This document shows positions 27,528 through 61,517 of a stretch of 64,000 nt of DNA, one piece after another. The DNA lies in the IMG/VR virus record IMGVR_UViG_3300045988_182866; one strand, written 5' to 3'. The notes beneath the pieces are model-generated. The model did not search any database. It worked only from the letters and a program-made list of their open reading frames with translations, and had not been told where the DNA came from. The stretch comes from a virus. The first letter of the stretch is position 1. Every line of letters starts with the position of its first letter. Made by a program: the position numbers and the translations under genes.

Positions 27528-30125
27528 CTATTCTTCTCCGAATAAATCAAATAATTCAAATTCATATTCATCTGTTACATTAGGAGGAGTCCAGTTTGCC
27601 ACTTTATAAAGGCTGGCAATGCAAGCATAAAATGGCTTTTCAAATATTCTTCGATAGTCAATCTCAAATAATTCAAGAAATTCAGGAGGCATATACCCGT
27701 CTCGAATAGCAATCGAGTCAATCCTATACTTATTATTGGGCTTTAATGCAATAACCTGTATTGTATCTCCTTCTCTAATAGGCTGAACTCCATGGATTTT
27801 TTCCTTTTCTATAATAAGATTATAATAATATGCAGCTCTAATATGAGCTTGCATGCCTTTCATAGTCTGAAAACCAGAAGAACCGTCAGAATATTTGTTA
27901 AATGTTTTAACTCGGGCAATCTTGCAAATAGTTGTCAATGGAAGTTTTTTAAATTCTTCATATGCCTCTCTTAGCCTTTTATCGGTTTCATACTTATTCT
28001 GATGAAGAATCATAGGCTCAATAACTTTTTTACCAATTTCTTTAATCGGCTTACTCATAATACTTTTAGCCAGTTCAACACCAGTATATTTCCAAGAGAT
28101 TTTGAGATTACCCTCGAGGTCTACTTCACCTTCATTATCAACACAATGTAAAACGTAATTCTTCTTTTTGCGGTACAAACCATAGTCGCAAATCTTTTCA
28201 CGTTTAAAATGAAGGATTGTTCTCTTAGTATTAAACGTTTCAGTTACAAACTTATTGAGTTCTCTATCAATGTAATCATTAAGTTCATCAATAAGTTTAT
28301 ATCCTTCTGGAGTAACTTTAGAATCTTTACAAATTATAATCCCGGCAACTCCATGAAGAGAAACGCCAACTGAGTCAGTATCATTAAAGATAATATGCTC
28401 CTCGGCAACTTCTTCAGTCATCCCGGGAGTTTTCATCATAATAAAATCTTTGACAATTCTATTAACCTGTTTAATAGTGCATTGTCCAGTTAAAGTAATT
28501 GAATTTCCTATTGAATCATGGCCCAAAGGACTCGTCTTAGAAGTCAAAGCTCCATAACAGCTGTTAATACAAAGTTTCTTTGTATATTGCGCAATTTGAA
28601 GCTGCTTAATTTTTAATTCAATCTTTTCTTTCTCCTCTTTAGGAAGATCTTTCTTTAATTCTTCTTCAAGCCTAACAATTTCCTTTCTGTCTTTCTTTCG
28701 AGAATCAAAGACACTTTCCATAAATTCTGGATAAATGCCCTGTTTCTTTTGTGAGAATAATACATTTGCAGGAGTCCTAATTAGCTCAGTATTCTTTACA
28801 AATTCATTAAACTTTTGTTCTGTTAAAGTATATTGTTTTCCAGAAGTTAATGTCAAATGAATATTTCCATCTCCCAATTCCACAAATTCACCAACCATTG
28901 TTTCAATGGAAATATTATTCGTAATGGCGCAAGAAGGGTATAGCGATGCAGCATCATACGTTATTAGATCTTTTACAAGACCTGGTTTTACGCTTACATA
29001 TCCGCCTTCATTCTTACCTTCAAGGACTTCTCGTTTTGGAGTAAAAAGGATTTGTCCCCGAGATCTTGCTTTTAGAGCAATTGCTCCGGAAACATATGCA
29101 ACTACGCCTAATCCATCTTCAAAATTCGTTAATCCAAGAGTAGCGAGATACCTTAAAAGAGCGAAATAATTAGTCTTCTTATCAATCTTTACAAGAAGTT
29201 CAACATCTCGAATATTATAAAGAACGAAATCATTCCAATTATTTTTTTGGAAATCTCCAATGGGTCCTTCATACTCAAGTTTTTGTTCTCCTACTTCTAT
29301 TGAACCAATGTGGTCCAGCTTATAAGAATCTTGAAGTTTTACCTTTAGTTTCTTATAAACATCAATATAGTCAATAATAAGCATTCCAGGAGTAATATAT
29401 TTTGTATATTCTCTTGGAGGATTATCCTTTGTTTTACCAATGCCCATATTGAATATTCCCAAAGGACTTAATCTTTTTAATTCATCCTGTCCTAAAACTT
29501 TAGTAATCCGATTGACCAAATAAGGCATATCGAAAAAATTTGAGTTCCAGGCAGAAAGAATATCAGGATGGTCTTTTTCAATATATCTTAAAAATGATTC
29601 AAGGAGTTCATATTCATCTTCGCAATGAATATAAAATACCTTCAGGTCATTAGGTAATTCTCCGGTAAATTCTTTTGTACCGAATGTAGTATATTCATTA
29701 GTCAAAGAATCATGAATAGTAATAAGACTAATCGGAGCTCTTGCCTCTTCCGGTGCTGGGAATTCATTATAAGGAAGTGGCTCAGTTTCAATATCGAAAA
29801 AACAAATCTTCAAAGGATTCTTAGAAAAATCTTCAGAATCCTGCATTCCTCCATATTCATCCATTAAGAATTGCTGAGCCGGTTTAAAATTCTCAAATAA
29901 CCTTGTTATTTTTGAATCCTTAATGAATTCACTTCTTTCCCATGAATTCTTAAAAATCTTTTTGGACAAAGGAGTACCAAAAATAGAAGTATACTTCCCA
30001 TTTGAATCCTCAATATACAAATATGGAGAATAAGGACGGTCAACCATAATTCGGTCGCCGTCCTTATTCCAAGTAAACAATTTGATATTTTTATCTCGTC
30101 CGTCCCAATAAGCGAATCGGTACAT
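27528..30125 (-). CDS. DNA polymerase, family B (T4 gp43-like), with the 3'-5' exonuclease domain.
   Basis: ExoI reads FFDIETE. Motif A reads DAASLYPS, motif B KLCINSCYG, motif C FNDTDS. Size is 865 aa. Confidence 0.95.
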   Translation of the reverse strand: MYRFAYWDGRDKNIKLFTWNKDGDRIMVDRPYSPYLYIEDSNGKYTSIFGTPLSKKIFKNSWERSEFIKDSKITRLFENFKPAQQFLMDEYGGMQDSEDFSKNPLKICFFDIETEPLPYNEFPAPEEARAPISLITIHDSLTNEYTTFGTKEFTGELPNDLKVFYIHCEDEYELLESFLRYIEKDHPDILSAWNSNFFDMPYLVNRITKVLGQDELKRLSPLGIFNMGIGKTKDNPPREYTKYITPGMLIIDYIDVYKKLKVKLQDSYKLDHIGSIEVGEQKLEYEGPIGDFQKNNWNDFVLYNIRDVELLVKIDKKTNYFALLRYLATLGLTNFEDGLGVVAYVSGAIALKARSRGQILFTPKREVLEGKNEGGYVSVKPGLVKDLITYDAASLYPSCAITNNISIETMVGEFVELGDGNIHLTLTSGKQYTLTEQKFNEFVKNTELIRTPANVLFSQKKQGIYPEFMESVFDSRKKDRKEIVRLEEELKKDLPKEEKEKIELKIKQLQIAQYTKKLCINSCYGALTSKTSPLGHDSIGNSITLTGQCTIKQVNRIVKDFIMMKTPGMTEEVAEEHIIFNDTDSVGVSLHGVAGIIICKDSKVTPEGYKLIDELNDYIDRELNKFVTETFNTKRTILHFKREKICDYGLYRKKKNYVLHCVDNEGEVDLEGNLKISWKYTGVELAKSIMSKPIKEIGKKVIEPMILHQNKYETDKRLREAYEEFKKLPLTTICKIARVKTFNKYSDGSSGFQTMKGMQAHIRAAYYYNLIIEKEKIHGVQPIREGDTIQVIALKPNNKYRIDSIAIRDGYMPPEFLELFEIDYRRIFEKPFYACIASLYKVANWTPPNVTDEYEFELFDLFGEE

Positions 30126-30692: not shown

Positions 30693-32501
30693 TTAAATGG
30701 TGATTCTTTTTGTAATACCATTATGCTTGTCTAATTGAATAATTTCACCGATTCCAGCTTTAAAGAAATCAGGCTTATGAGAAATGAGATAAATCGCCTG
30801 GTCTTCTTTCTGGGCAAATTCTTCTAAAATATTACAAACAATTTCCGAGTTAGTTTTATCCAAAGAAGAATCAAGAATTTCATCATAAAAAGAAACGTTG
30901 TAACTTACGGAACCTTGCAATTTAAGAATATCTCTAAATGCCCATATACAAGCTAAGTCTAGCATTTTAGATTCAGCACCGGAAAGATTTCCATAACTTA
31001 CCATAATTCCTCTTTTATTGAGAATTTCTTCTTCAAATACTTCATTAAATGATAATGAATATTGAGAATTCTGCTTAGTGAGATAATACTTGATTCTAAA
31101 ATTCAGTAAATCAAGAAGCTTTTTAATAATATAAGCCCTGATACCTTCTTCAGAAAGAATAAATCTTGCAATTTCAAATTTAGCTAAAGAAGCATTAATG
31201 TCTTTAATAACTTCTTCTTTTTTGGCTTTTTCTTTTTCGGCTTTTTCAATTAAATCTTTGAATATATCTTTTTCTTCAGATTCCTTCTCATGAACCTGGT
31301 ATTGTTTTAAAAGATCTTCTTTTAATTTTAAAGTATCAGTCTCAGCTTTAATGGCTGACTTATTATTGCTAATTTCCCATTCTAAATCCCTTAACTGGTT
31401 TAACTCTTTTTGCTTCTTTTGCTGAATATCCTGAGCTAGGGCAATAAGTTTGTTTAATTTTTCTTTTTCTTCTTCTTTCTTTAGAAGTTTATCTTGAAGT
31501 TCTTTAATAGAATGTTTAATTTCAATTTGATCTTTATCAGTAAATGGGCGGTTACATTCGGCACAAACTGGACCAAACTTTAATAAGGTATCAATTTTTT
31601 CAGATATAGTCTTTTTTTCATTCTTAATAGCTCCTAAATCAGCAGCTATTCTTATTTGGGCTTCCCGAGTCTTTCCTATATCATTTTTAATAGCATTTAA
31701 AATACTCTCGGAAACCTTTATTTTAGAAAGTCTAGCTTCCTCTTCCTTTAATTTAGAAATCTTTAAGGAAATTTTATGAATATCTTTTTCAATAATTTGT
31801 TTCTCAAGTTCTTTCTTTTGTTTTTGATTGGCAATTCTCTCCAACTCTTTCCTTTGTTTAGAAGTATAATCAAAAATATTAGAATTAATTTGTTCTACAA
31901 GTTTAGATTCTATGTCAAGTTCTCTTTTAGAGATATTAATATCATCCTTAACAAGCTTAAACATTTGAGTTACTACATCAAGATTAAAAAGACTTTCAAT
32001 AAACTTCTTTTTATCAGTCTTGCCCTGGCTCATAAATGGAATTGTATTATTTGCCTGCATGGCAATACAATTCTTAAAAACCTCTTGAGATGTAGAAAGA
32101 ACCTCTAAAATATAAGTTGTCGTATTAGGAATACTATCTCTTGTTTTATCCCTCCCGTCCTTGAATACCTTTAAAGAAGACGGATTTAATTCTCGAATAA
32201 TCTTAAAATTATTATTTCCCTTGGTCGAATTACAGTTAAATTCAAGAATAACTTGAGTTGTTCCTTTAACCAAATTATTAGGAATATTCCTAATTGCTAA
32301 ATCTTTTAGAGTTTTTCCAAAAATAGCAAAAGAAAATGCCGCAACGATAGAACTTTTGCCAACACCATTTTTAGTGCCCGGTACATCAGAATTTGTACCA
32401 GTGATGAAATTAACACCTGGTTTAAATTCAATTACAACAGACTCTTCACCAATCGATAAAAAGTTTTTAATTTGAATTTTTTTAAATGTTATAAACTTCA
32501 T
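30693..32501 (-). CDS. Recombination ATPase, Rad50/SbcC family (T4 gp46-like).
   Basis: N-terminal Walker A reads GTNSDVPGTKNGVGKSS. A long coiled coil carries a CAEC zinc hook. The C-terminal signature is LSGAESKMLDLA followed by Walker B DEILDSSLD, which parallels T4 gp46. Confidence 0.85.
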   Translation of the reverse strand: MKFITFKKIQIKNFLSIGEESVVIEFKPGVNFITGTNSDVPGTKNGVGKSSIVAAFSFAIFGKTLKDLAIRNIPNNLVKGTTQVILEFNCNSTKGNNNFKIIRELNPSSLKVFKDGRDKTRDSIPNTTTYILEVLSTSQEVFKNCIAMQANNTIPFMSQGKTDKKKFIESLFNLDVVTQMFKLVKDDINISKRELDIESKLVEQINSNIFDYTSKQRKELERIANQKQKKELEKQIIEKDIHKISLKISKLKEEEARLSKIKVSESILNAIKNDIGKTREAQIRIAADLGAIKNEKKTISEKIDTLLKFGPVCAECNRPFTDKDQIEIKHSIKELQDKLLKKEEEKEKLNKLIALAQDIQQKKQKELNQLRDLEWEISNNKSAIKAETDTLKLKEDLLKQYQVHEKESEEKDIFKDLIEKAEKEKAKKEEVIKDINASLAKFEIARFILSEEGIRAYIIKKLLDLLNFRIKYYLTKQNSQYSLSFNEVFEEEILNKRGIMVSYGNLSGAESKMLDLACIWAFRDILKLQGSVSYNVSFYDEILDSSLDKTNSEIVCNILEEFAQKEDQAIYLISHKPDFFKAGIGEIIQLDKHNGITKRITI

Positions 32502-32769
32502 TATCAGCCAACTTTTCTAAAATCTTTTTCTTATTTTTAACCTTTTGCTTATGCTTCTTTACAAATGAAAAACATTTTGAATAAAACTTACATTCATTCT
32601 TTGAACAATTACAATGAGGCCACCAATCATTTCTGCAAAATGGTAATTCTTTCCAAGAATTTTTATGAGCACCTCCATGTACTCCATCTCTTTTATCCCG
32701 GGACATTAGAAATCTCTCTATATTTCTTTTGCAAATATTGCAATACTTCTTTTGGATTAGGAACATCAA
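32482..32769 (-). CDS. Small Cys/His-rich ORF overlapping the junction of the gp47-like and gp46-like genes; tentative call.
   Basis: The 95-aa product has about 8 Cys and 4 His. It overlaps the 3' end of the gp47-like gene by 77 bp in another frame, so it may be spurious. Confidence 0.25.
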   Translation of the reverse strand: MMFLIQKKYCNICKRNIERFLMSRDKRDGVHGGAHKNSWKELPFCRNDWWPHCNCSKNECKFYSKCFSFVKKHKQKVKNKKKILEKLADNEVYNI

Positions 32770-33730
32770 GCAAACCGATATATTCTTTAATTGCTTCCAT
32801 TAATTCTAAAGCAACAAAATCAGTTTTTGTATCAATAGCAGAAGAAAATCCTTTATTATCCCAGTCAATATCGCATTCCAGAGGCTGACAAGATGACAAT
32901 AATTTAATAAGTTCATCCATGTCATCTACAGTAATATTCTTATCAATCGCCAGTCGAAGATAATTATTAACAATTTCTTTACCAATCTTAGAAGGTTCTT
33001 TTCTAATTAGGGAAGAAAGAGTCATCTTAATAAATTTAGGAGAAATCTCATTATAATGATAAGAATATTTTCCTGTATCTACATCAAGAATAATAAAACC
33101 TTTCTTATCTCCCGCCTCTCCATAGTTCATCTGAAAAGGATTACCTACATAAACAATAGATCCAGATGAATATTTTCTAAACTGGGCTTTATGAAAATGC
33201 CCAGAAAAAATACTATTAAATTTCTTCAATAGATCAGATAATTTAAAACCTTCTTCACAAAGATGCTCAGATGAATTCATTTGAAACGTATTAATCTCAA
33301 AATGACCGAACAAATAATCAGAAGATTCAATTTCTGGATTTAACGGATTAAATCCCCATGGACAAAGAGTAATACTTTTATCCCCGATATTCAATCTGGC
33401 AGGCTTATCATAATATTTGATATTATTATATCCTTGAAAAATAGAAGTAGAAGATACTTCAGTGCTTCCGGAAAAATACAAATCGTGATTACCTGGAAAT
33501 ATATGAATAGAAAAATCCTCCAATAACCGGAGGATTTTTGCTGTTGAATTCAAAGTATAAACATCTACCGAATTTCTGTTATGAAACCAGTCTCCAAGAA
33601 AAAATACATCTTTAATATTTTTCTCTTTGAGAGTTTTAACCATATCTTGGATAAATTCAACTGCAACACTATGCCAATGTTGATTATCTCCTTTAATTCC
33701 AAGATGTAAATCAGAAAAAATTGCTATCAT
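32693..33730 (-). CDS. Recombination nuclease, Mre11/SbcD family (T4 gp47-like).
   Basis: Phosphoesterase motifs read SDLHLG, GDWFH and GNHDL, as in T4 gp47. Size is 345 aa. Confidence 0.85.
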   Translation of the reverse strand: MIAIFSDLHLGIKGDNQHWHSVAVEFIQDMVKTLKEKNIKDVFFLGDWFHNRNSVDVYTLNSTAKILRLLEDFSIHIFPGNHDLYFSGSTEVSSTSIFQGYNNIKYYDKPARLNIGDKSITLCPWGFNPLNPEIESSDYLFGHFEINTFQMNSSEHLCEEGFKLSDLLKKFNSIFSGHFHKAQFRKYSSGSIVYVGNPFQMNYGEAGDKKGFIILDVDTGKYSYHYNEISPKFIKMTLSSLIRKEPSKIGKEIVNNYLRLAIDKNITVDDMDELIKLLSSCQPLECDIDWDNKGFSSAIDTKTDFVALELMEAIKEYIGLLDVPNPKEVLQYLQKKYREISNVPG

Positions 33731-33795
33731 TACTTGCCTAAAACCATTCTTTTATCTGAACTTTATCCTTTGCCGCTAAGATTCTTGAATTTCAA

Positions 33796-34977
33796 TCATT
33801 CCGCAATAAAAACCTTATTTCCTACATCCCATATCCGGTCCCAACCGTTTGCACTCATATTTTCATATTCAGATAATTTAAGATCAAAATAATTCAAAAG
33901 ACGCGGTAATTTATGTTTTTGAAATTGAACTCGGCTTTTTCGTTGAAGAGAATTATCTTTAAAATAAAAGTAATTCGGGTCAGCATCATGAATCTCCTTA
34001 AATCCAATTTGTCGATAAAGCTGACCTTGGGACCATCGACGATCGGCATATGTAATTACACTGCCTGCATTATTTCTACGAAAATATTCAAACAACTTGG
34101 AAGCTCCTCCAATTACTGTAAAATTAGCAACTGTACAATAGCGAATCAGTTCATAATCATATTTCTTGTTAAACCTGGATTTATTAAAAGTCATTACAGC
34201 CACCATGCGATTCTTATAAAATAATCCCAGATTAATGGAAGAAGCGTAAGTTCCTTGAATATGATATTTTAAAATAAATGGCTTAACTTGCTGATAAGTC
34301 AATTCGCGAACTTTACATTTACGAGCATAGATCTTTCCGGAAGTAATTCCAAGAAGATGACGAATACGGGCCTTAACAATCTGCGGCTTCAATTCCCATT
34401 CATCTTCGAATACATGAATTAACCGTACTCCTTTTTCTTCACACTTATTTGTTTCAGTCAAATGGTACCGTTTAGTAAATCCATTTCGTTCACAATGTCC
34501 TGAAAGGGAATCAAACTCAAAAGCAATCTTCTTATCTGGAATATGAATAGCAATAGTATAAGGAGCTGCTAACTCTTTATCATTCTCAATAATCCGGCCA
34601 TTATAAACACTTTTAATATAATTTATAAAATTATTATAAGACTCAGGGTTAGATACCGGCTCAACAATAGGAGCTGGTTCTTTTTTAGAAGACGTGGAAA
34701 CTTTTTTAATTTTTTCCTTCTTTTGCTTTGGTTCTTTTGGAGCTTTGGACACTTTAGGCTCTGTATTTTTCCTTAATGCTTCAATAGCACATTGCCTGCA
34801 TCCATACTTGGAACGTATAAAATGCTGGGTTAAACAAAAGAAAGATCCATGATCCTTGCAAATAATTTCAACCGGTTTCCTGTTACTTTGATAATCAACT
34901 TTAGAGTAATCAAATTGATCTCCAAATTTTTCAAGGCAGAATTTAATAAAAGCTTCCTTACGTTGTTCTTTTTTCAT
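33796..34977 (-). CDS. Homing-endonuclease-like protein. One N-terminal zinc-ribbon module is followed by a DUF559/Vsr-like segment and a C-terminal domain of unknown family.
   Basis: The N-terminal module FDYSKVDY...IICKDHGSF...YGCRQC is shared with the paralogs at 36864..37547 and 60588..61517. The internal IAFEFDS..H segment is DUF559-like. Confidence 0.55.
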   Translation of the reverse strand: MKKEQRKEAFIKFCLEKFGDQFDYSKVDYQSNRKPVEIICKDHGSFFCLTQHFIRSKYGCRQCAIEALRKNTEPKVSKAPKEPKQKKEKIKKVSTSSKKEPAPIVEPVSNPESYNNFINYIKSVYNGRIIENDKELAAPYTIAIHIPDKKIAFEFDSLSGHCERNGFTKRYHLTETNKCEEKGVRLIHVFEDEWELKPQIVKARIRHLLGITSGKIYARKCKVRELTYQQVKPFILKYHIQGTYASSINLGLFYKNRMVAVMTFNKSRFNKKYDYELIRYCTVANFTVIGGASKLFEYFRRNNAGSVITYADRRWSQGQLYRQIGFKEIHDADPNYFYFKDNSLQRKSRVQFQKHKLPRLLNYFDLKLSEYENMSANGWDRIWDVGNKVFIAE

Positions 34978-34998
34978 AGAATGAATATAACTAATTTC

Positions 34999-35634
34999 TC
35001 AATTTTTAAAGGTGCGCAGATTACACACTTTATTTTTAGTATGTATCTTGGTAAACAACAAATTTTCTATAGATTTTCTATTATTTTTCCAGTCTCTTTC
35101 TTCGACATTTATTAGTAGAATATTTGCTTCTTTACAACGCCTTTCCTTTTCGGCATGACAGCCAGGCTGTCTTTCTTCTTTAAGTTTATGCCAGTGAGAT
35201 CCATTATATTCAATGCCAATTCTTAATTCGGGAAGAAATATGTCAAGCTCCATTCTTCCTATTTGAGTCTTATCATTTTCAAGAACTTCTCCCGAATAAA
35301 TTGACTTAATATATGCACAAACTTCTTTTTCTCCTCTAGATGTCTGTTTAGATAAGGCACATATTGGACAACCTTGTTGAAGATACCAATGACTAGACGG
35401 TATTTGTTGAAATACTCCGTGTACAGGACATATGATATTAACCTTAGAATGTGCGTTTACATAATTTACTAAAGAATAATCATATTTTTCTCCATGAACT
35501 TTTCTAGACCTCTTAATAAATTCATCAATTGTTAACTTTTCAAAACCAAAACATTTAGGACACCCTGAGCCATTTAAATGACTATTTGGTTTTTGCCAAA
35601 AAATACCATGTTTAGGACAAATAATTGATAGTTG
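34999..35634 (-). pseudogene. C-terminal fragment of the IS-disrupted homing-endonuclease-like gene (zinc-ribbon modules plus a DUF559/Vsr-like PD-(D/E)XK domain).
   Basis: The frame is open back to a stop at 35635-35637 with no start codon. It begins mid-module (IICPKHGIFWQ...). Its C-terminus ELDIFLPELRIGIEYNGSHWH parallels the intact paralog at 60588..61517. Confidence 0.7.
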
Positions 35635-36863
35635 CTAATTTCAATGAAATTCATTGAAAATTAACTTATTTTATCATGGGGACCATATACTCCCAAGCGA
35701 AGGATATTGATAGCAGCATTAATATCAGCATCAAATGTTCCTCCACAAGTCTTACAGTGATATACTTCACCTTGTCGACTCGACTTATCAACAGTATTAC
35801 AAACGTGGCATCGTTGAGATGTATAAGCAGGAGGAACTTTAATCAACTGGAAACCTTCCGTCTCAGAAAGTGACTCAAACTTATTCATTACTTTAATGTA
35901 ACTCCACCTTTGTAACTTGTTGTTAAACTTTTTAGAAAACTTTGATTTGTACTTAATGCATTTAAGATTCTCGATAATTACTTGCCCACAATCTTTATGT
36001 TCGTTATAAAATTTCTTAACGGCTAGATTGATTGCTTCATCACGCTCCCTAAGAGCTCGTTTGAAAGCTTTAGACCGTTGTTTCTTGCGAGAAATCTTTT
36101 CATAAATGTCCTCAAGTTCTTTACCATAAACCTTTCCATCACTACATGCGAGTAACTTTTTGTAACCACAATCAACTCCTGCTGATAATTTATTCTTTTT
36201 CTTTTCAGCTTCTTCTTTTTCCCAAAATAATTTCAACGAGAAATTATCAGACAGCATGAAACTATTTTTTAATTTCCAACCATTATTTTTGAACCTCAAA
36301 CTTACTCGATGATGATTGATTGGAAGTTTAAGTAGTATAGCTCGATGTTTTGTCTCTTGAAAATATGGTGAAAATATCTTGATGAAACAGTCAAACTCCT
36401 TAGTCTTATCCTCTTCAATATCCCATAGCATATAGTTAAGATTAATACTATGGGATTTAATTACTGACTCAGTAATCTTCTTAATTCTTTTTTTCTTAAG
36501 TAAAGTAACTTGCGAACGGTAAATCTGTGAGGCCTCTCGATAACATAACGCTCTCCATCTACTATTAGAAATATCATTTAATTGTGGGCAAAACTTACTT
36601 GAAAGATTTTGTTTCAATGGTAATTCACCATCATGAATTTTATGAAGATATAACTGAAGCAACTCTTTATAATCCTTAATAATCTTCCAGTACAAATCGA
36701 TTTTATCTCGATTTGCATACTTAAGTGTATGGGAAGATGAACGAATCACTTTGTTAACATTTTTATCTAGCAAGGTAAAATTAAAACTTAGATATTTTTT
36801 TAAGAAAAAATGAAAATTTTGATTATAAATTCATTTTATTTCTTTGAAACTAATGAATAATTA
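35626..36863 (-). mobile_element. IS200/IS605-family TnpB-only element (IS1341-like, no tnpA) inserted into a homing-endonuclease-like gene; boundaries approximate.
   Basis: The flanking sequences join into one continuous ORF (...HSQKKI | IICPKHG...). The element contains tnpB. A perfect 10-bp subterminal palindrome lies at 35639-35659, right after the tnpB stop. A left-end hairpin lies at 36807-36837. Confidence 0.75.
35661..36773 (-). CDS. tnpB: TnpB (IS605 OrfB-family RNA-guided nuclease) with its RuvC-like catalytic residues and zinc finger intact.
   Basis: RuvC-I reads GVDCG. RuvC-II reads VIIENLK. The zinc finger reads CHVCN...CKTCGG. RuvC-III reads DADINAAINI. Size is 370 aa. Confidence 0.85.
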   Translation of the reverse strand: MLDKNVNKVIRSSSHTLKYANRDKIDLYWKIIKDYKELLQLYLHKIHDGELPLKQNLSSKFCPQLNDISNSRWRALCYREASQIYRSQVTLLKKKRIKKITESVIKSHSINLNYMLWDIEEDKTKEFDCFIKIFSPYFQETKHRAILLKLPINHHRVSLRFKNNGWKLKNSFMLSDNFSLKLFWEKEEAEKKKNKLSAGVDCGYKKLLACSDGKVYGKELEDIYEKISRKKQRSKAFKRALRERDEAINLAVKKFYNEHKDCGQVIIENLKCIKYKSKFSKKFNNKLQRWSYIKVMNKFESLSETEGFQLIKVPPAYTSQRCHVCNTVDKSSRQGEVYHCKTCGGTFDADINAAINILRLGVYGPHDKIS

Positions 36864-37547
36864 TTATATTTTTTTCTGAGAATGCTCATAACTTACTTGA
36901 GAATAATCATAAAGAGTACCATGAACTTTTCTTGCTTTCTGAATAAAATCTTCAGTCGTTACTAACTCTTTATTTCCACATTTTGGACAACCACACCCAT
37001 TAAGATGGGAATTAGGTGTTTGCTGAAATATATGTCCACACTTTTTACATTTAATTTTTACCTTAACTTTATTACCCTGGTAATCCACTTCAGAATAATC
37101 AAATTTATCACCGTGTACTTTACTAGCTTTTTCAATAAATTCTTTAGTTGTAGATTTATTGTTATTAGAGCAAAAAGGACATCCAAAACCTTTCATATGG
37201 CTTTGTGCCTGCTGTTCAAATATATGCCCACATTTTTTACATTTAATTTTTACTTTAAGCTTATTGCCTTGATAATCTACTTCAGAATAATCAAATTTAT
37301 TGCCATGAACTTTTTGGGACTTTTCAATAAATTCTTTAGTTGTTAGCTTCTTAACACCAGCACATTCTAAACATCCGCATCCCTGGACATGGCTATAAGC
37401 TTTTTGCTGAAAAGAACCGTGAATAGGACATATTATTGTTATGACATTATGAGCTCCTGTATAAAAAGTCTCAGAATAATCATATTTGTTTCCATGAACC
37501 TCTGTACATTCTTTAATAAATTGCTCATTTGATTTTAATTTTGCCAT
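36864..37547 (-). pseudogene. N-terminal fragment of the IS-disrupted homing-endonuclease-like gene (3.5 tandem zinc-ribbon modules).
   Basis: The module pattern HGxK(Y/F)DYSxVxY...K(V/I)xIxCxxHGxFxQ...H(L/M)xGxGCPxC recurs. The ORF ends mid-module at the IS insertion point. Confidence 0.7.
36960..37343. repeat. Tandem direct repeat, 2 x 192 bp, encoding duplicated zinc-ribbon modules.
   Basis: Residues 69-132 and 133-196 of the ORF are near-identical (TTKEFIEK(S/A)(Q/S)KVHG(N/D)KFDYSEVDYQGNK(L/V)KVKIKCKKCGHIF...). Confidence 0.7.
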
Positions 37548-37588
37548 TTATTTTCATTTCGGAAACTCCTGAAAAAATTAAGGTGAAA

Positions 37589-38149
37589 TTAATCTTCTGA
37601 ATCTTCTTCCGGTCTTACATAAATTGGAGCGTCTGCGCATTGAATAAGTTCCGGATATTTTACTTCCCTATATTTTTTAACTTTTTCAGCGTGCTTCTTT
37701 TCATTTTTTATGATTGCACAGAAGGACCAGTAACAGATTTGCGTCCAAAAACTGAAAGCCTTAGACCCATAATTCACACTCCATTTCTTCCCACGCAGTG
37801 CGGTCATACATTTAATGAGAGCACTTGAAATCATTTCATCTTTATAAGAATAACGGCTAAAGCTCGAAGACCTTGCTAAACCTTGCGCAATCTTAAGGAA
37901 ACATTCCGCGATGTAATTCATATTCGGTTTATCGCTGTCCTCAACTTCATAAAACCTTTTAATTGCCGCGTCAAATTTAGCCGAATCTACATAATAGTCC
38001 TCTTTTTTAGTCTTTCCTCGATTCTGAACAGTAATAAACGCCCTTTTCTTATTCGGATCATTCAGCATTTCACGCTTTTTATCCAAATCTTCAGGCGGAC
38101 GTGTTTTAGTAGAAGGCTGTACAAATTGTTCTTTATTAGCTTCAGTCAT
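37589..38149 (-). CDS. Putative late-transcription sigma factor, T4 gp55-like.
   Basis: Size is 186 aa. IAQGLARSSSFSRYSYKDEMI...FWTQICYWSF resembles the gp55 segment IAEGLSKRFNFSGYT...YITQACFNAF. It lies adjacent to the 46/47 homologs, as in T4. Confidence 0.5.
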   Translation of the reverse strand: MTEANKEQFVQPSTKTRPPEDLDKKREMLNDPNKKRAFITVQNRGKTKKEDYYVDSAKFDAAIKRFYEVEDSDKPNMNYIAECFLKIAQGLARSSSFSRYSYKDEMISSALIKCMTALRGKKWSVNYGSKAFSFWTQICYWSFCAIIKNEKKHAEKVKKYREVKYPELIQCADAPIYVRPEEDSED

Positions 38150-38172: not shown

Positions 38173-39675
38173 TTAGGCCTTTAGGCCAATTATTTTAAAA
38201 GGAATCTTTTCTTGCTCATATAATTTGATACGTTCATCTCTATGCCTTAACGCATATTTTGTATTGGGAATTATATCGATAACCCGGGCAAGAGTTTTAT
38301 TTTCCTTTAAACGCAGTATTCGTCCGATGGATTGAATTATTCTTACATTGCTTTTTCCAATCAAACCAGGAAATACAATATTATGCAAATTTTTGATATT
38401 GATACCTGTTGAGAATATTGAAGCTTGAGCAATTAACAAAATATTGTTTTCTTTTTCCAATTGCTCCTTAATATCGGTTCGTTCTTCAATCGGCACCTCT
38501 CCTTGAATAAAGTAAACTTTTCTATTCGGATCGGCTTCTTTAAATTTTTGCAGAAGATTTTCCCCATGAATAATCCTATTGACCAAAATTAAAGTATTAT
38601 TGCTTAATTTTGAAACAATAGAAGTAATAGTTGAGTTAAACTGGTCATTATTGCTCAACCATTCGGTTTCTTCCATGAATCCAAAAGGCCTTTTAACACC
38701 TTCATCATCCAGGACATAAGTCGGAATATCATTTAATTGAATATTAATTCCAAAAGTTGAAACCTGCGTCAGGAATTTATCTTTTCTTAATTCTGCAGAA
38801 GGCAGTTCAAATCTTACAGGTCCAATTTTGCCTAAGATTGACCATTTGTCATGTTTATCATGTGGTAATGTACCTGTGAAGCCATATCTTAACTTAGCCG
38901 GAAGATCTGCGATAATCTTAGAAATTTTATTATTGGCCTTAATTGAATGAACTTCATCGATGATAATACAGTCAAATTTTTGTATCTCTTTTTTAAGGTC
39001 ATCATACTGGGCTCTGAGAATACTTGCTCCGCAAATAACGACTTGTGATTTCTTATCGAAAGGAATATTTGAAAACCATTTGGAAATAGAATATTTGAAA
39101 TTCTTTAAATGCGAAGAAATATCATTAAAAGTCTGATTGGCCAAATCAGGAAAAGGACAAACCAATAAAACTTTTCTGGCTAATTTATTCTTAAGAATAT
39201 TCCGGATTAATAATGCGCAGCATACTGTCTTGCCCGCTCCTGTTCCTAAAATATAAATACCGTTTTGCTTATTAAGGGCAATTTGCATCGATTCTTTTTG
39301 ATAAGGCCTGACTTCTGATCCTTTATCATCAATATAAATGTTCTTCGTATCAAGAACTAAATCATTGCTCTGAATATATTTTTTAATGCCGTCATCTAAT
39401 TTAAATTTAACAGAACGATCATAAAATGTATTCTTAACAAATGCAAGTATGTCTCGTAATAATCCGATTTCAAATTCACCGGACATTTTAATGCAAGATT
39501 TCTTAATATATTCTTTACTCGGTTGAATTTTGATGCCTTTTTGACGACATCTCTTGACATACATATGATTTCGTTCAACTGTAGAAAAATGATCTCTCAA
39601 TTGTTCATAAGCATCAAAGTACTCAAATATAATCCTACCAAGATTATTTGATGTTCTGTTGATTTCGATAATCAT
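38173..39675 (-). CDS. Superfamily-2 DExH-box helicase (possibly UvsW-like).
   Basis: Motif I reads LGTGAGKT, motif II IIDEVH, motif III GFTGT, motif VI QSIGRILR. Size is 500 aa. Confidence 0.75.
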   Translation of the reverse strand: MIIEINRTSNNLGRIIFEYFDAYEQLRDHFSTVERNHMYVKRCRQKGIKIQPSKEYIKKSCIKMSGEFEIGLLRDILAFVKNTFYDRSVKFKLDDGIKKYIQSNDLVLDTKNIYIDDKGSEVRPYQKESMQIALNKQNGIYILGTGAGKTVCCALLIRNILKNKLARKVLLVCPFPDLANQTFNDISSHLKNFKYSISKWFSNIPFDKKSQVVICGASILRAQYDDLKKEIQKFDCIIIDEVHSIKANNKISKIIADLPAKLRYGFTGTLPHDKHDKWSILGKIGPVRFELPSAELRKDKFLTQVSTFGINIQLNDIPTYVLDDEGVKRPFGFMEETEWLSNNDQFNSTITSIVSKLSNNTLILVNRIIHGENLLQKFKEADPNRKVYFIQGEVPIEERTDIKEQLEKENNILLIAQASIFSTGINIKNLHNIVFPGLIGKSNVRIIQSIGRILRLKENKTLARVIDIIPNTKYALRHRDERIKLYEQEKIPFKIIGLKA

Positions 39676-42656: not shown

Positions 42657-44597
42657 ATGCAAGAATTTACAAAAATTTTACAAAATATTGAGCTAATTCA
42701 GGAAGCTCAAAAAAGAAAAGATCCTGTTCTTAATGTAGTAACATTATTCAGTGGAATGGGAGCTCCGGAAATTGCCCTTGATAAATTGGGAGTCAAATAC
42801 AGGATTGTTCTGGCATCTGATATTGATCCAGAGGCTGAAGCAGTTTATAAGCAACTTCATGGTAAAAAACTTGCTAAAGGAAATGATTCATTTATTCCGA
42901 ATGTTTATGATGTTTTAGACCAGGTTGAACCTTCAAAGCTTAGCGCAGATGTTTTAATTGCAGGATTTTCTTGCCAGGCTTTTTCTTTATCTGGTAAACA
43001 ATATGGCATTTATTCTCGTCAAGTAAAACCTGAAGGATCCAATAAAAAATTTGTCGTCAATATTAAAAGGCATTTAACTGATATTAATGGAGATACTGCA
43101 ATCACTGTTAATAATGATGAATCTGATCCTTTACCTGAAGGACTTCCCGAAGGAACTAAAGTAACTATTTCTCCAGATTCTGACGGTAAGCTGGCATTTC
43201 AAACATTAAAGATTGCCCAAACATTAAAGCCAAAAGTTATTATTCTTGAAAATGTTTCTACTTTTGGCCAGGCTGATATTGAAGATGAAGATGAAGTTCC
43301 TTCTGAATTTATTACAGAAGAAAAAGAAATTAAAGTAATTCAATCCAGACTGGGACAATCTGGAAAAGTAGACATATCTGAAGGAGGTTATTTGAGACTC
43401 CTTGGAAAGATTTTCAATACTATTGGATATAGTTTTTATCCAATGTACCTTGATCCGACTTCTTATACTAATTCCGTAATTCGTCGTCCACGAATTTATA
43501 TCGTTGGTATTCGAAATGATATTGAAGCAGGAATTAATCCAAATAAATTAGAAGCTTTTGATGATAAGATGGCAACTAATTTTGGATTGAACACCACTAA
43601 ATCCGAAAAGGATTATCAAAAGCTTTTGGACAAAACTTTGAACTACATTATGAGTTCAAAGTATTCTCATGGCTATATGTCCAAAAATCCTCGAGAACTT
43701 GTTAAAGGTTTAGTCTCTAAATTTGGCATTAATAGATTTGCAGAAGCTACTGACTATATCTTTAATAAGCTTGTTAAAAATGGAAGTGTTGATCCCAGAA
43801 ACCTTCAATTAAATCAATTTCAGTATGATTCTAATGTTATTGATAAAGAATTTAATGATCCTCAGGTTATTAAATTCTTCAAGAAAATCAGAAGCGAACA
43901 GCAACCTGTAATTTTGGATGTATCTGAAAAAAGCGATACTGTTGATTATCTTTCTACTGTTTTAGCGGAAGGTATTTCTGGTTATTTTGAAGAATATAGC
44001 GGTAAATTTACTATTGATAATCCGCAAGGTGAATTAAATTTAGACTTTGGAACTAAACCCGCAAAACCAAAGGTTAAGAAAGAAAAACCATTGGTTCAGG
44101 GTGAATTGGATCTTGACTATGGGGAAGATCCTTTGGGACAAGTAGTTCAAGAAGCTTTAGGAAAATATAATAATCAAAAAGTTGATGAAATTGCTATTAA
44201 GAAATTTAAAGAAATCATTGCTAAGAAGTTATTGACCCAATTTCTTTTAAATTCTTATAATAAACGTAATTTAAGTTATATTCCTACAATTCTCAAGAAT
44301 TCATCTATTCCTATGAAAGTCGGAGGAGTTGGCAATGCAAACTACTTTATTCTTCGTAATAAATCCGGACAGTTTAGCTGGGGATATATTCATCCGGCAA
44401 TTTTGATGAAGTTGATGGGAATGTATTATAATTCAAGTTCCGGAGATGATTCAATTTATCAAAGTATAGCAAAAACAAAACTTACAAATGGCCGTCCGAT
44501 TTCAGTTAATGGAATTATTCGACGAATTGGTAATTCAATGAGTGTAACAGTTCTTGAAAAATTATTCAAATCGCTAATTTCAATGAAAGCCCTATGA
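42657..44597 (+). CDS. DNA (cytosine-5)-methyltransferase with an unusually long variable (target-recognition) region (646 aa).
   Basis: Motif I reads LFSGMGAPE. Motif IV reads GFSCQAFSLSGK, the catalytic Cys in an SCQ context. Motif VI reads ILENV. Motif VIII reads RRPRIYIVG. Motif X reads RIGNSMSVTV. About 330 aa separate motifs VIII and IX. Confidence 0.85.
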   Translation: MQEFTKILQNIELIQEAQKRKDPVLNVVTLFSGMGAPEIALDKLGVKYRIVLASDIDPEAEAVYKQLHGKKLAKGNDSFIPNVYDVLDQVEPSKLSADVLIAGFSCQAFSLSGKQYGIYSRQVKPEGSNKKFVVNIKRHLTDINGDTAITVNNDESDPLPEGLPEGTKVTISPDSDGKLAFQTLKIAQTLKPKVIILENVSTFGQADIEDEDEVPSEFITEEKEIKVIQSRLGQSGKVDISEGGYLRLLGKIFNTIGYSFYPMYLDPTSYTNSVIRRPRIYIVGIRNDIEAGINPNKLEAFDDKMATNFGLNTTKSEKDYQKLLDKTLNYIMSSKYSHGYMSKNPRELVKGLVSKFGINRFAEATDYIFNKLVKNGSVDPRNLQLNQFQYDSNVIDKEFNDPQVIKFFKKIRSEQQPVILDVSEKSDTVDYLSTVLAEGISGYFEEYSGKFTIDNPQGELNLDFGTKPAKPKVKKEKPLVQGELDLDYGEDPLGQVVQEALGKYNNQKVDEIAIKKFKEIIAKKLLTQFLLNSYNKRNLSYIPTILKNSSIPMKVGGVGNANYFILRNKSGQFSWGYIHPAILMKLMGMYYNSSSGDDSIYQSIAKTKLTNGRPISVNGIIRRIGNSMSVTVLEKLFKSLISMKAL

Positions 44598-60587: not shown

Positions 60588-61517
60588 TTGTCTATGATAA
60601 AAAGACAAAGAAGATTTTTAAACACTGAAATTTTTATAGAATTAGCAAAACAAATTCATGGAAGCAAATATGATTATTCAAAAGTCAGCTATAAAAATGC
60701 TAATACAAATGTTTTAATAATTTGTCCTATTCATGGTTTGTTCAGTCAAAATCCAAGATCTCACCTAAAAGGGTTTGGATGTGCAAAATGTTCAAATCGA
60801 ACAGCTAAGACTACTGAAGATTTTATCAAAGAATCAAAGCAGGTTCATGGAGACAAATATGATTATTCAGAAACAGTTTACGTCAATAATCACACAAATG
60901 TAAAAATCTTTTGCAAAAAAGATAAAATATTCTTTATACAAAATCCTAGAGTTCATCTTCAAGGAACGGGATGTCCCAAGTGTGCAAGAAATCAAAAGTT
61001 GACAACTAAGGGATTTATAGAAAGAGCTATAGCTATTCATGGTAACAAATATGATTATTCTTCAGTAGTTTATCAATCACATGCCAAAAAGATTATTATA
61101 ATTTGTCCTATCCATGGGCCTTTCGAGCAAAGAGCAAATGGTCATTTGAACGGCAAAGGCTGTTATAAATGTGCAAAGAGTTATAAGCGTTCAAGGGGAG
61201 AGATTGAACTTTGTAAATTTATTAAATCAATTTATTCCGGTCAAGTTTTGGAGAATGACAGAACAGTTATTAAGCCAAAAGAACTAGACATTTATCTTCC
61301 TGAATTAAAGTTGGCTCTTGAATATAATGGCGAATATTGGCATGATGAAACTAAGAAACGAAAACCGGGTTATCATAAAGAAAAGCAAAAAGCTTGTGAA
61401 AAGAAAGGCATTAAATTAATTGAGGTTTGGGATTCAGAATGGCATGCAGATAAAGATAGATTTAAAAATCTTATTCAAGAAGTAATAAATTCTATTCAAT
61501 CACCTTTAAAAATTTAG
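60588..61517 (+). CDS. Intact homing-endonuclease-like protein with three tandem zinc-ribbon modules plus a DUF559/Vsr-like PD-(D/E)XK endonuclease domain.
   Basis: Three modules are present: HGSKYDYSKVSY...IICPIHGLF..HLKGFGCAKC, HGDKYDYSETVY...HLQGTGCPKC and HGNKYDYSSVVY...IICPIHGPF..HLNGKGCYKC. The C-terminus carries ELDIYLPELKLALEYNGEYWH...IEVWDSEW. Confidence 0.7.
   Translation: MSMIKRQRRFLNTEIFIELAKQIHGSKYDYSKVSYKNANTNVLIICPIHGLFSQNPRSHLKGFGCAKCSNRTAKTTEDFIKESKQVHGDKYDYSETVYVNNHTNVKIFCKKDKIFFIQNPRVHLQGTGCPKCARNQKLTTKGFIERAIAIHGNKYDYSSVVYQSHAKKIIIICPIHGPFEQRANGHLNGKGCYKCAKSYKRSRGEIELCKFIKSIYSGQVLENDRTVIKPKELDIYLPELKLALEYNGEYWHDETKKRKPGYHKEKQKACEKKGIKLIEVWDSEWHADKDRFKNLIQEVINSIQSPLKI

What the first reader, a model, noticed from the sequence alone, without database searches (positions are those of the whole stretch)
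33796..37547. Family of homing-endonuclease-like genes built from tandem about 64-aa zinc-ribbon modules fused to a DUF559/Vsr-like nuclease
Three loci share one repeating module, HGxK(Y/F)DYSxVxY-x6-8-K(V/I)xIxCxxHGxFxQ-x4-H(L/M)xGxGCPxC. The loci are 33796..34977, the IS-split gene 34999..35634 plus 36864..37547, and 60588..61517. The module count varies from one to about five copies. Two copies are near-identical 192-bp tandem DNA repeats at 36960-37343. Two of the loci end in a PD-(D/E)XK-like domain (ELDI(F/Y)LPEL..IEYNG..WH). Variable zinc-ribbon arrays in front of a nuclease suggest modular DNA-recognition fingers. The arrays are recombinogenic, because of the tandem repeats, and one copy has been targeted by an IS. 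I do not recognise this exact module as a named family, so it may be poorly described.
Basis: partly seen in the sequence, partly recalled or inferred. Interest (0 to 1): 0.55.

Follow-up and report, generated by a model that had tools for sequence, protein, structure and literature searches.

The report
Zinc-finger-array homing endonuclease genes in phage
Three related selfish nuclease genes of an already described type sit in an uncultured T4-like phage; one is intact, one was recently split by an RNA-guided (TnpB) jumping element, and one has lost its nuclease active site but kept a Mom-like DNA-modifying domain.

Summary
Nine copies of a ~64-aa Cys/His module lie in three genes: A 33796-34977 (1 module), B (5, split) and C 60588-61517 (3). 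B and C end in a Vsr-like nuclease.

It is not an undescribed family. The module hits Pfam DUF4379 and DUF723 above threshold. The genes fall in PHROGs annotated as homing endonucleases. The same architecture, CapR/DUF4379/DUF723-like domains plus an EDxHD/Vsr-like nuclease, was described in phage homing endonuclease genes in 2025. Repeated arrays of these zinc fingers were described in 2023, and CapR binds DNA experimentally. A module profile finds 35,688 cluster representatives.

- B's insert is a 1238-bp TnpB-only IS200/IS605-type element (35628-36865). Removing it restores a 436-aa ORF. That empty site occurs intact in eight contigs 97-99% identical to the window.
- A is three-domain: one module, a Vsr-like domain lacking the catalytic Asp and Glu that 103 and 96 of 105 relatives keep, and a Mom-like GNAT domain that keeps four of Mom's activity-critical residues.
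- The "near-identical" 192-bp repeats are only 72% identical.

Verdict: new members of a known kind, modest interest.

The parts
60588..61517 (+). Gene C: intact free-standing homing-endonuclease-type gene with 3 zinc-finger modules and an EDxHD/Vsr-like nuclease. It is 309 aa from the TTG; the likely true start is the ATG at 60594, giving 307 aa.
   Evidence: ORF. Pfam DUF4379 28.0 bits against a cutoff of 24.5. phrog_559 2.4e-61. AF2 model pLDDT 88.8. Nuclease domain matches 3r3p_B with TM 0.78. P0001, 98% identical, is 307 aa.
60615..61187 (+). The three modules of C (C1 60615-60806, C2 60804-60995, C3 60996-61187). C2 lacks the second ligand of the first knuckle (CKKD instead of CxxH/C).
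   Evidence: Alignments. In the model each module is a helix, a beta-hairpin and a short helix.
61188..61514 (+). Vsr/EDxHD-like nuclease domain of C, with SRGE..ELD..EYNG..WH..YH.
   Evidence: phmmer against 3r3p_A, E 0.013, with residue-level alignment. Foldseek hits to 3r3p_B, 3hrl, 1cw0 and 1vsr.
36866..37547 (-). Gene B, 5' fragment: modules B1-B3 and the first third of B4. The ORF ends at a TAA made from the last T of the flank and the first two bases (AA) of the inserted element.
   Evidence: Pfam DUF4379 63.6 bits.
36966..37349 (-). Modules B2 and B3, an intragenic tandem duplication. They are 75% identical in protein, against 30-57% for all other module pairs. Both use CKKCGH (CxxC) where the other modules have CPxHG.
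35628..36865 (-). Inserted 1238-bp TnpB-only IS200/IS605-type element, with no target duplication. The left boundary is certain only to within 2 nt.
   Evidence: Ends defined against a second copy in another context. The predicted empty site is found exactly in two related IMG/VR contigs. Six further contigs call B as an uninterrupted 436-aa gene.
35661..36773 (-). tnpB ORF, 370 aa from a TTG start. The sequence shows the expected RuvC acidic motifs (GVDCG, IIENL, DADINAA) and a CxxC..CxxC zinc ribbon.
   Evidence: Pfam Cas12f1-like_TNB 59.7 bits. NCBIfam guided_TnpB 89.9 bits, below the cutoff of 100. Aligned to Cas12f 9nzq and other Cas12f/TnpB-type solved structures.
35608..35800 (-). Inferred omega-RNA region: the 3' end of tnpB, the right-end hairpin at 35639-35659 and about 20 nt of flank that would act as the guide (CAATTATTTGTCCTAAACAT).
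   Evidence: Hairpin. Fold z-score -2.9. The role is inferred from published TnpB biology and was not shown here.
34999..35627 (-). Gene B, 3' fragment: the rest of module B4, module B5 and the EDxHD/Vsr-like nuclease (SRGE..ELD..EYNG..WH..CH).
   Evidence: phrog_559 1.6e-40.
33796..34977 (-). Gene A, 393 aa, of the type annotated 'Hef' in Campylobacter phages. It has one module (34777-34968), a disordered linker (aa 73-105), a Vsr-like domain with a degenerate active site (about 34348-34656) and a Mom-like GNAT domain (about 33799-34344).
   Evidence: phrog_3339 1.5e-98. AF2 pLDDT 89. Best PDB fold match is Mu Mom 8bv8_A, E 1.7e-6. Family profile against 3r3p, E 1.8e-6. Active-site column counts. 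hhalign to Mu Mom.

Best explanation
A, B and C are paralogous free-standing homing-endonuclease-type genes of the class 'array of CapR/DUF4379/DUF723-like treble-clef zinc fingers + EDxHD/Vsr-like nuclease'. They sit between conserved genes of a very divergent T4-like phage.

Inferred mechanism for C and for uninterrupted B:
- Each ~64-aa module folds independently as a helix, a beta-hairpin carrying CxxH/C, and a short helix carrying CxxC, and binds one zinc.
- The modules lie like beads on a string along an extended DNA site and tether the C-terminal nuclease.
- The nuclease cleaves using the Glu, Asp, Asn and His residues of the EDxHD set. In this clade a His replaces the final Asp.
- A break in a co-infecting genome that lacks the gene is repaired from the gene-carrying genome, which copies the gene and its flanks.

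State of each copy:
- C is intact.
- B was recently inactivated in this genome by a TnpB-only IS200/IS605-type element, and is intact in sister phages.
- A has lost the catalytic Glu and Asp and all but one module. It keeps a conserved Mom-type GNAT domain and appears to be under purifying selection. It probably no longer cuts DNA and acts, if at all, through DNA binding and Mom-like adenine modification.

Shown here: sequence, fold, family membership, active-site content, insertion polymorphism and sporadic distribution. Inferred: zinc binding, DNA binding, cleavage and homing.
For: - Modules and ORFs.
- Pfam DUF4379 at 63.6 and 28.0 bits and DUF723 at 28.8 and 23.2 bits, all above cutoff.
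- PHROG homing-endonuclease and endonuclease families, down to 1.5e-98.
- 1224 phage records hold relatives, many annotated as homing endonuclease.
- At least 7625 (C) and 2735 (A) homologs. 35,688 cluster representatives match the module profile, with up to 14 modules per protein.
- Nuclease domain: 3r3p (I-Bth0305I) by sequence at E 0.013, by profile at E 1.8e-6, and by fold at TM 0.78 and rmsd 3.0; Vsr and 3hrl also match.
- Catalytic positions were mapped using PMC3239194.
- Confident models with low pTM, consistent with independent modules.
- Sporadic distribution: only 1 of 53 loci with a homolog of the upstream gene (35-63% identity) carries such a gene.
- pN/pS against sister phages is 0.07-0.09 for B and 0.20-0.25 for A, compared with 0.05-0.09 for most core-gene comparisons (one low-count comparison gave 0.50).
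- Literature: the same architecture is described as a large outgroup of EDxHD/Vsr homing endonuclease genes (PMC12350094). Repeated zinc-finger arrays occur in such genes (PMC10448857). CapR binds DNA, and binding is lost when its four Cys are mutated (PMC8096241).
Against: - No member of this exact architecture was tested biochemically in anything I could read. The Hef paper (Sandegren 2005) is not held.
- The fifth EDxHD residue, Asp222 of I-Bth0305I, aligns with His here.
- Module C2 lacks one zinc ligand.
- Strong purifying selection on B, and the presence of A and B in every close relative seen, are not what a purely selfish decaying element would show. They could indicate a function useful to the phage.
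- No target site is known.
- No solved structure matches the module.
Confidence: 0.8

Rival explanations
1. B and C are site-specific nucleases that the phage uses for its own benefit, not for homing. Possible uses are exclusion of competing phages or satellites, or attack on host DNA, as with ICP1 Odn. The zinc-finger arrays would supply the targeting.
For: B has a pN/pS of 0.07-0.09, as low as most core-gene comparisons. A and B are present in all close relatives recovered. PMC10448857 documents nucleases related to homing endonucleases that were recruited into phage-satellite conflict.
Against: The position of C is occupied in only 1 of 53 more distant relatives. That, the multiple paralogous copies and the placement between core genes form the classic pattern of free-standing homing endonuclease genes. 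Homing and exclusion are not mutually exclusive.
Confidence: 0.15
2. Gene A is one half of a Mom-plus-REase 'modification/restriction' fusion. The Mom domain modifies the phage's own adenines and the Vsr-like domain cuts unmodified foreign DNA, as predicted for jumbo-phage Mom fusions.
For: The best fold match of the C-terminal domain is Mu Mom. R279, D312, R314 and Y321 align with Mom residues R111, D149, R151 and Y159, all reported as important for activity. PMC7824862 proposes this logic for Mom-REase fusions.
Against: In window A the restriction half looks dead. Asp is replaced by Ala where 103 of 105 relatives have Asp, and Glu by Tyr where 96 of 105 have Glu. Proteins with this architecture are annotated 'Hef' or homing endonuclease in Campylobacter phages. 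Whether the Mom-like domain is active at all is untested, and the position equivalent to Mom S124 is ambiguous in the alignment.
Confidence: 0.25
3. A, and the truncated 227-aa product of the B 5' fragment, act as nuclease-free DNA-binding regulators or site protectors. They would be domesticated in the way CapR was.
For: CapR is exactly such a domesticated zinc-finger domain. A lacks the catalytic residues yet has a pN/pS of about 0.2. The B fragment retains three complete modules behind its own start codon.
Against: The B truncation is a recent insertion seen only in the window, not in the eight related contigs recovered. It is more simply read as a knockout. A has a single module, which may not give much sequence specificity. 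The pN/pS for A rests on only 12-16 substitutions.
Confidence: 0.1

Closest known systems
CapR-like zinc-finger array + EDxHD/Vsr-like homing endonuclease genes described in phage group I and II introns (Merk et al. 2025, PMC12350094)
   Same: They share the same domain order. Three to five ~60-aa domains related to Pfam CapR/DUF4379/DUF723 precede a ~100-aa C-terminal domain distantly related to EDxHD/Vsr.
   Different: Those examples are intron-encoded. B and C here are free-standing between core genes of a T4-like phage. I did not compare the sequences directly.
I-Bth0305I, prototype of the EDxHD homing endonuclease family (PDB 3r3p; PMC3239194)
   Same: The C-terminal catalytic domain has the same fold (TM 0.78). 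The Glu, Asp, Asn and His positions are conserved in B and C.
   Different: I-Bth0305I uses N-terminal NUMOD2/HTH-like motifs, not zinc-finger arrays. Its fifth catalytic residue, Asp222, is His here. It is intron-encoded in recA.
CapR of the Vibrio cholerae PLE satellite, and the ICP1 T5orf172 homing endonuclease genes with repeated CapR/DUF723/DUF4379 domains (PMC8096241, PMC10448857)
   Same: They share a related Cys-based zinc-finger DNA-binding module that is often repeated in tandem and acts as the targeting part of a nuclease.
   Different: The nuclease partner there is T5orf172 (GIY-YIG-like), not Vsr-like. CapR's ligand pattern is CxxC-24/26-CxC, whereas here it is CxxH/C-~15-CxxC. 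The Pfam CapR model hits the window proteins only at E 0.58.
Hef-type phage homing endonucleases (phage U5 Hef; 'Hef-like' genes of Campylobacter CP220-like and ViI-like phages)
   Same: Gene A falls in phrog_3339. Its DNA matches genes annotated 'Hef' or homing endonuclease in Campylobacter phages. Taylor et al. place Hef-type endonucleases in the EDxHD family.
   Different: Window A has one module and lacks two catalytic residues. The original Hef paper could not be read here, so the domain content of U5 Hef itself is unverified.
Phage Mu Mom (PDB 8bv8), a tRNA-Gly-dependent DNA adenine-modifying GNAT
   Same: It is the best fold match to the C-terminal domain of A. Arg, Asp-x-Arg and Tyr are conserved at aligned positions.
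   Different: Sequence identity is about 15%. The Pfam Mom hit for A is below threshold (14.3 bits against 27.1). In A the domain is fused behind a Vsr-like domain and a zinc finger. Its activity is unknown.
IS200/IS605-family TnpB elements (ISDra2-type RNA-guided nucleases)
   Same: The element has a TnpB ORF with the RuvC motifs and a zinc ribbon, subterminal hairpins and no target duplication. The two independent insertion sites share the same 5' pentanucleotide, AATAT.
   Different: There is no TnpA. The element lives in a lytic-type T4-like phage genome. The NCBIfam guided_TnpB score is just below cutoff. The TAM and the omega RNA are inferred only.

Membership tests
Pfam DUF4379 / DUF723 (treble-clef zinc-finger modules, CapR-related) | Score above the Pfam gathering threshold | tested here: met
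   DUF4379 scores 63.6 bits (B 5' fragment) and 28.0 (C) against a cutoff of 24.5. DUF723 scores 28.8 (A) and 23.2 (B 5' fragment) against a cutoff of 20.9. The B 3' fragment is below both cutoffs.
Pfam DUF4379 / DUF723 (treble-clef zinc-finger modules, CapR-related) | Two zinc knuckles, CxxC/H and CxxC, on a beta-hairpin and a helix | tested here: met
   Eight of nine modules have C-x2-H/C ... C-x2-C; C2 lacks one ligand. The AF2 model shows a hairpin and a short helix in each module. Metal binding itself was not testable.
Pfam DUF4379 / DUF723 (treble-clef zinc-finger modules, CapR-related) | Sequence-specific DNA binding | not testable with these tools
   Shown only for the distant relative CapR (PMC8096241).
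EDxHD / Vsr-like homing endonucleases | Vsr-like catalytic fold | tested here: met
   C against 3r3p_B: TM 0.78, rmsd 3.0. Vsr (1cw0, 1vsr) and 3hrl also match. Profile of the A family against 3r3p: E 1.8e-6.
EDxHD / Vsr-like homing endonucleases | Catalytic residues E170, D196, N208, H213 and D222 (I-Bth0305I numbering) | tested here: inconclusive
   B and C keep Glu, Asp, Asn and His, but the fifth position is His. This His is in 103 of 105 A-family members. Window A has Tyr, Ala, Asp, His and His, so it fails at two positions.
EDxHD / Vsr-like homing endonucleases | Site-specific cleavage and homing | not testable with these tools
   Only indirect support: sporadic occurrence in 1 of 53 loci and free-standing placement between core genes.
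Mom family (GNAT fold, DNA adenine modification), C-terminal domain of A | Mom-like GNAT fold | tested here: met
   The top PDB hit is 8bv8_A (Mom), E 1.7e-6 and probability 1.00, followed by other GNATs.
Mom family (GNAT fold, DNA adenine modification), C-terminal domain of A | Pfam PF25680 above threshold | tested here: not met
   A scores 14.3 bits against a cutoff of 27.1. Many homologs of A carry a precomputed PF25680 hit.
Mom family (GNAT fold, DNA adenine modification), C-terminal domain of A | Residues important for Mom activity: R111, S124, D149, R151 and Y159 | tested here: inconclusive
   hhalign pairs R279, D312, R314 and Y321 with R111, D149, R151 and Y159. S124 falls on I289, with S293 nearby. 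The alignment E-value is 0.0028 and its probability is low.
IS200/IS605-type TnpB element | TnpB protein with RuvC motifs and a zinc ribbon | tested here: met
   Pfam Cas12f1-like_TNB scores 59.7 bits against a cutoff of 26.3. The RuvC-II Glu and RuvC-III Asp align with Cas12f and TnpB-type structures. NCBIfam guided_TnpB scores 89.9, below its cutoff of 100.
IS200/IS605-type TnpB element | Insertion without target duplication, next to a fixed short target, with subterminal hairpins | tested here: met
   Filled and empty sites were compared. Both insertion sites have AATAT 5' of the left end. The left boundary is ambiguous by 2 nt.
IS200/IS605-type TnpB element | TnpA (Y1 transposase) in the element | tested here: not met
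   The 1238-bp element holds only tnpB, which is common for non-autonomous TnpB-only elements.

The most novel reading that the evidence does not exclude
Gene A represents a homing-endonuclease lineage converted into a nuclease-dead, zinc-finger-targeted Mom-type DNA adenine modifier. It is kept by selection, possibly to mark or protect a specific site in the phage genome, for example against cleavage by relatives of B or C. More broadly, the ~64-aa modules may form a combinable DNA-recognition code that retargets several nuclease and modification domains.
Probability: 0.15. Interest if true: 0.65.

Novelty: new member of a known kind. Interest (0 to 1): 0.3.

Why it matters
This protein class is very large: 35,688 cluster representatives match the module profile. 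It is almost uncharacterised biochemically. No module-DNA structure exists, and no recognition rule or target site is known.

This phage lineage offers a convenient natural test set:
- an intact three-module enzyme (C);
- a five-module enzyme for which both interrupted and uninterrupted alleles exist in nature (B);
- a variant with a dead nuclease active site that keeps a Mom-like domain (A).

It also gives a clear case of an RNA-guided TnpB element moving within a lytic-type phage population. In that setting TnpB could itself behave as a homing endonuclease during co-infection. None of this changes current understanding; it adds well-documented examples.

Tried and rejected
- Tandem Repeats Finder reported no 192-bp array. 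The copies are too diverged, which corrects the 'near-identical' claim.
- Self-splicing or IStron reading of the insert: an Rfam scan of 33500-38000 at E<=1 found no group I or II intron or any relevant RNA. Only 91 nt lie between the left end of the insert and tnpB. Rejected.
- NCBIfam gave nothing useful for A, B or C.
- DNA-level search of GenBank phages found no close relative, only short 68-75% matches. The DNA polymerase is 28-30% identical to those of isolates, so the host remains unknown.
- Sequence search of PDB with the A-family profile did not reach Mom, even at E<=10. The link rests on fold and on a weak hhalign alignment.
- Foldseek found no solved structure resembling the zinc module.
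- The phrog_559 label 'HNH endonuclease' is probably a misnomer for these members. Pfam gave no HNH-family hit for A, B or C.
- Sandegren et al. 2005 (Hef) is not in the library.
- A guide-like sequence search in the window found only the homologous positions of modules B1 and C1, each with 3 mismatches. That is no more than chance.

Full report
**Setting.** The window has 31.6% G+C and comes from a T4-like phage.
- Around the finding, all on the minus strand, lie an SbcC/gp46-like ATPase and an SbcD/gp47-like phosphoesterase (30693-33730). A 186-aa ORF (37589-38149) follows that I take to be gp55-like on position and size only. Next come a SNF2/DEAD helicase (38173-39675) and a family-B DNA polymerase (27528-30125).
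- The polymerase is only 28-30% identical to those of isolated phages.
- No GenBank phage matches the region at the DNA level.
- Metagenome contigs of about 199 kb that are 97-99% identical do exist.

**1. The observation.** Nine copies of one module are present.
- A (33796-34977, minus strand) has one. B has five, with the fourth split. C (60588-61517, plus strand) has three.
- The local consensus is KLTTExFIE....VHGxKYDYSEVxYQ.N..KVxIICPxHGxFxQxPxSHLxGxGCPKC.
- A six-frame scan for [YF]DYS gave these nine hits and one unrelated hit in 64 kb, so this is not chance.
- The ligand pattern is C-x2-H (C-x2-C in B2 and B3) followed by C-x2-C. Module C2 (CKKD) lacks one ligand.
- The claimed 'near-identical' 192-bp units (36960-37151 and 37152-37343) are 72% identical in DNA, 84% over the best 131 nt and 75% in protein.
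- B2 and B3 are still the closest module pair, at 75% against 30-57% for all others. They are an old intragenic duplication rather than a live recombination substrate. TRF did not report this 192-bp array.

**2. What the module and the nuclease are.**
- The module matches Pfam DUF4379 ('probable treble clef zinc finger') and DUF723 above their thresholds.
- The proteins fall into phrog_3339 ('homing endonuclease', A at 1.5e-98), phrog_559, phrog_681 and phrog_4605.
- tblastn finds relatives in 1224 phage records, 143 of them full length, many annotated as homing endonuclease.
- The large protein collection holds at least 7625 relatives of C and 2735 of A.
- A profile of the window's eight intact modules matches 35,688 cluster representatives at E<=1e-3 and 16,064 at E<=1e-30. 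Arrays reach 14 modules.
- Among 120 top hits to C, module counts run from 1 to 7, most often 5 or 6, followed by a tail of about 114 aa.
- The tail of C aligns with I-Bth0305I (PDB 3r3p) by sequence at E 0.013. The A-family profile reaches 3r3p at E 1.8e-6.
- The AF2 model of C has pLDDT 88.8 and pTM 0.47, which fits independent beads on a string.
- Its nuclease domain superposes on 3r3p_B (TM 0.78, rmsd 3.0) and also matches Vsr, NGO0050 and PvuRts1I. No solved structure resembles the zinc module.
- Taylor et al. define the catalytic set as E170, D196, N208, H213 and D222 (PMC3239194). B and C keep Glu (SRGE), Asp (ELD), Asn (EYNG) and His (WH). The position of D222 is His (YH or CH).

**3. 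Prior description.** This is already in the literature.
- Merk et al. 2025 (PMC12350094) describe phage intron-encoded homing endonuclease genes. [quoted passage not shown] - Barth et al. 2023 (PMC10448857) describe tandemly repeated CapR/DUF723/DUF4379 zinc fingers in T5orf172 homing endonuclease genes. They discuss modular retargeting and repeat-mediated recombination.
- Netter et al. 2021 (PMC8096241) show that CapR binds DNA, and that mutating its four Cys abolishes binding.
- Taylor et al. place Hef-type phage endonucleases in the EDxHD family.

**4. The split gene B.**
- The insert carries a 370-aa TnpB (Pfam Cas12f1-like_TNB 59.7 bits). NCBIfam guided_TnpB scores 89.9, just below its cutoff of 100. 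The RuvC Glu and Asp and the zinc ribbon align with Cas12f and TnpB-type structures.
- A second copy, 94% identical in protein, lies in a different context in IMG/VR contig 3300045988_182021 (L001). It sits at the 3' end of a gene whose equivalent in L064 and L065 is a Macro-domain gene.
- Aligning the two copies fixes the element at window 35628-36865 (1238 bp). It has subterminal hairpins at 36807-36837 and 35639-35659 and no TnpA.
- Deleting exactly these bases restores a 436-aa ORF. Module 4 then reads ..YDYSQVSYEHSQKKISIICPKHG.., with the same 14-aa spacing as module 5.
- The predicted empty site, CAGAAAAAAATATCAATTATTTGTCC, occurs exactly in two IMG/VR contigs that are 97-99% identical to the window.
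- Six further metagenome contigs call B as an uninterrupted 436-aa gene.
- There is no target duplication. Both insertion sites have AATAT immediately 5' of the element. The first two bases of the element differ between sites (AA against TG), so the left boundary is uncertain by 2 nt.
- A TnpB 99% identical to the window's copy sits at the Macro-side site in two more contigs. The B insertion is therefore probably a recent secondary copy.
- B's pN/pS against intact orthologs is 0.07-0.09, so there has been no decay since the insertion.
- The 3' 193 nt fold better than shuffles, with z = -2.9. By analogy with published TnpB systems, the omega RNA would carry the flank CAATTATTTGTCCTAAAC as its guide and could cut empty-site alleles of co-infecting relatives. 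This is inference only.
- No intron-like RNA was found.

**5. Gene A.**
- The AF2 model (pLDDT 89) shows one module (aa 1-72), a disordered linker (aa 73-105), a Vsr-like domain (aa 108-210) and a C-terminal domain (aa 212-393).
- The best PDB match of the C-terminal domain is phage Mu Mom (8bv8_A, E 1.7e-6), followed by other GNATs.
- hhalign against Mu Mom pairs R279, D312, R314 and Y321 with R111, D149, R151 and Y159. It also pairs F234 with W48.
- Mom R111 and R151 are essential, D149A greatly reduces activity, and W48A and Y159A drastically reduce it (PMC13219725). The matching A-family positions are invariant or nearly invariant. The position equivalent to S124 is ambiguous.
- Of 105 aligned family members, 103 have the catalytic Asp and 96 have the first Glu.
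- Only window A and its 98%-identical ortholog P0121 have Ala and Tyr at those positions. They also have Thr for the Glu of ELD and Gly for the Trp of YWH.
- A is therefore predicted to be nuclease-dead. Even so, its pN/pS is about 0.2, based on 12-16 substitutions.
- Iyer et al. noted Mom domains fused to REase-fold nucleases in jumbo phages and read them as modification/restriction pairs (PMC7824862). Campylobacter phage genes annotated 'Hef' match A's GNAT-coding region at the DNA level.

**6. Mobility signal.** I recovered 53 IMG/VR loci with a homolog (35-63% identity) of the upstream gene 59380-60522, which looks like a T4-type structural gene. Only one of them (L008) has a module-bearing gene downstream. 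The closest, L004 at 63%, has none. Within the close lineage, A, B and C are fixed.

**7. Verdict.**
- These are real genes of a known, widespread but biochemically almost untouched class. I rate them as new members of a known kind.
- The main added value is threefold: the corrected anatomy of A, the precisely documented TnpB insertion polymorphism, and the correction of the repeat identity.
- Zinc binding, DNA binding, cleavage, homing, Mom-like activity and TnpB guide function are all inferred and were not shown here.

Noticed in passing
window 35628-36865; L001 2909-4146; L064; L065: The same TnpB-only element occupies two different sites in one phage lineage. One is inside gene B, seen only in the window. 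The other is at the 3' end of a Macro-domain gene, where it replaces the last codons (..CNYSLVSKK*). No TnpA is present. AATAT lies 5' of both insertions, but the first two bases of the element differ (AA against TG).
   Followed up: yes
window 35870-35965 versus L001 3809-3920: The two TnpB copies are nearly identical over most of the element but sharply diverged in a patch of about 100 nt inside the ORF. This suggests recombination between TnpB variants.
   Followed up: no
window 44573-44588: There is an exact 16-nt match (TTTCATTGAAATTAGC) to the right-end hairpin region of the TnpB element (blastn-short E 0.017). It lies beside a strong terminator-like hairpin between convergent genes. It could be a relic of a right end, or chance.
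   Followed up: partly
window 33796-34977 (gene A): The Vsr-like domain has lost the catalytic Asp and Glu that nearly all 105 relatives keep, while the fused Mom-like GNAT domain is conserved and the gene has a pN/pS of about 0.2. This may be a homing endonuclease turned into a non-cutting DNA-binding or DNA-modifying protein.
   Followed up: partly
whole window; 27528-30125: The phage has T4-like core genes, but its DNA polymerase is only 28-30% identical to those of any isolate in GenBank. Near-identical contigs of about 199 kb recur in many independent metagenome samples; the protein clusters hold about 500 member sequences.
   Followed up: partly
one search hit list (P0009, P0034, P0100, P0110): The same zinc-finger arrays are found fused to other catalytic domains: HNH (PF01844), T5orf172 (PF10544), DUF559 (PF04480) and Mom (PF25680). 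They behave as a general nuclease-associated DNA-binding module.
   Followed up: no
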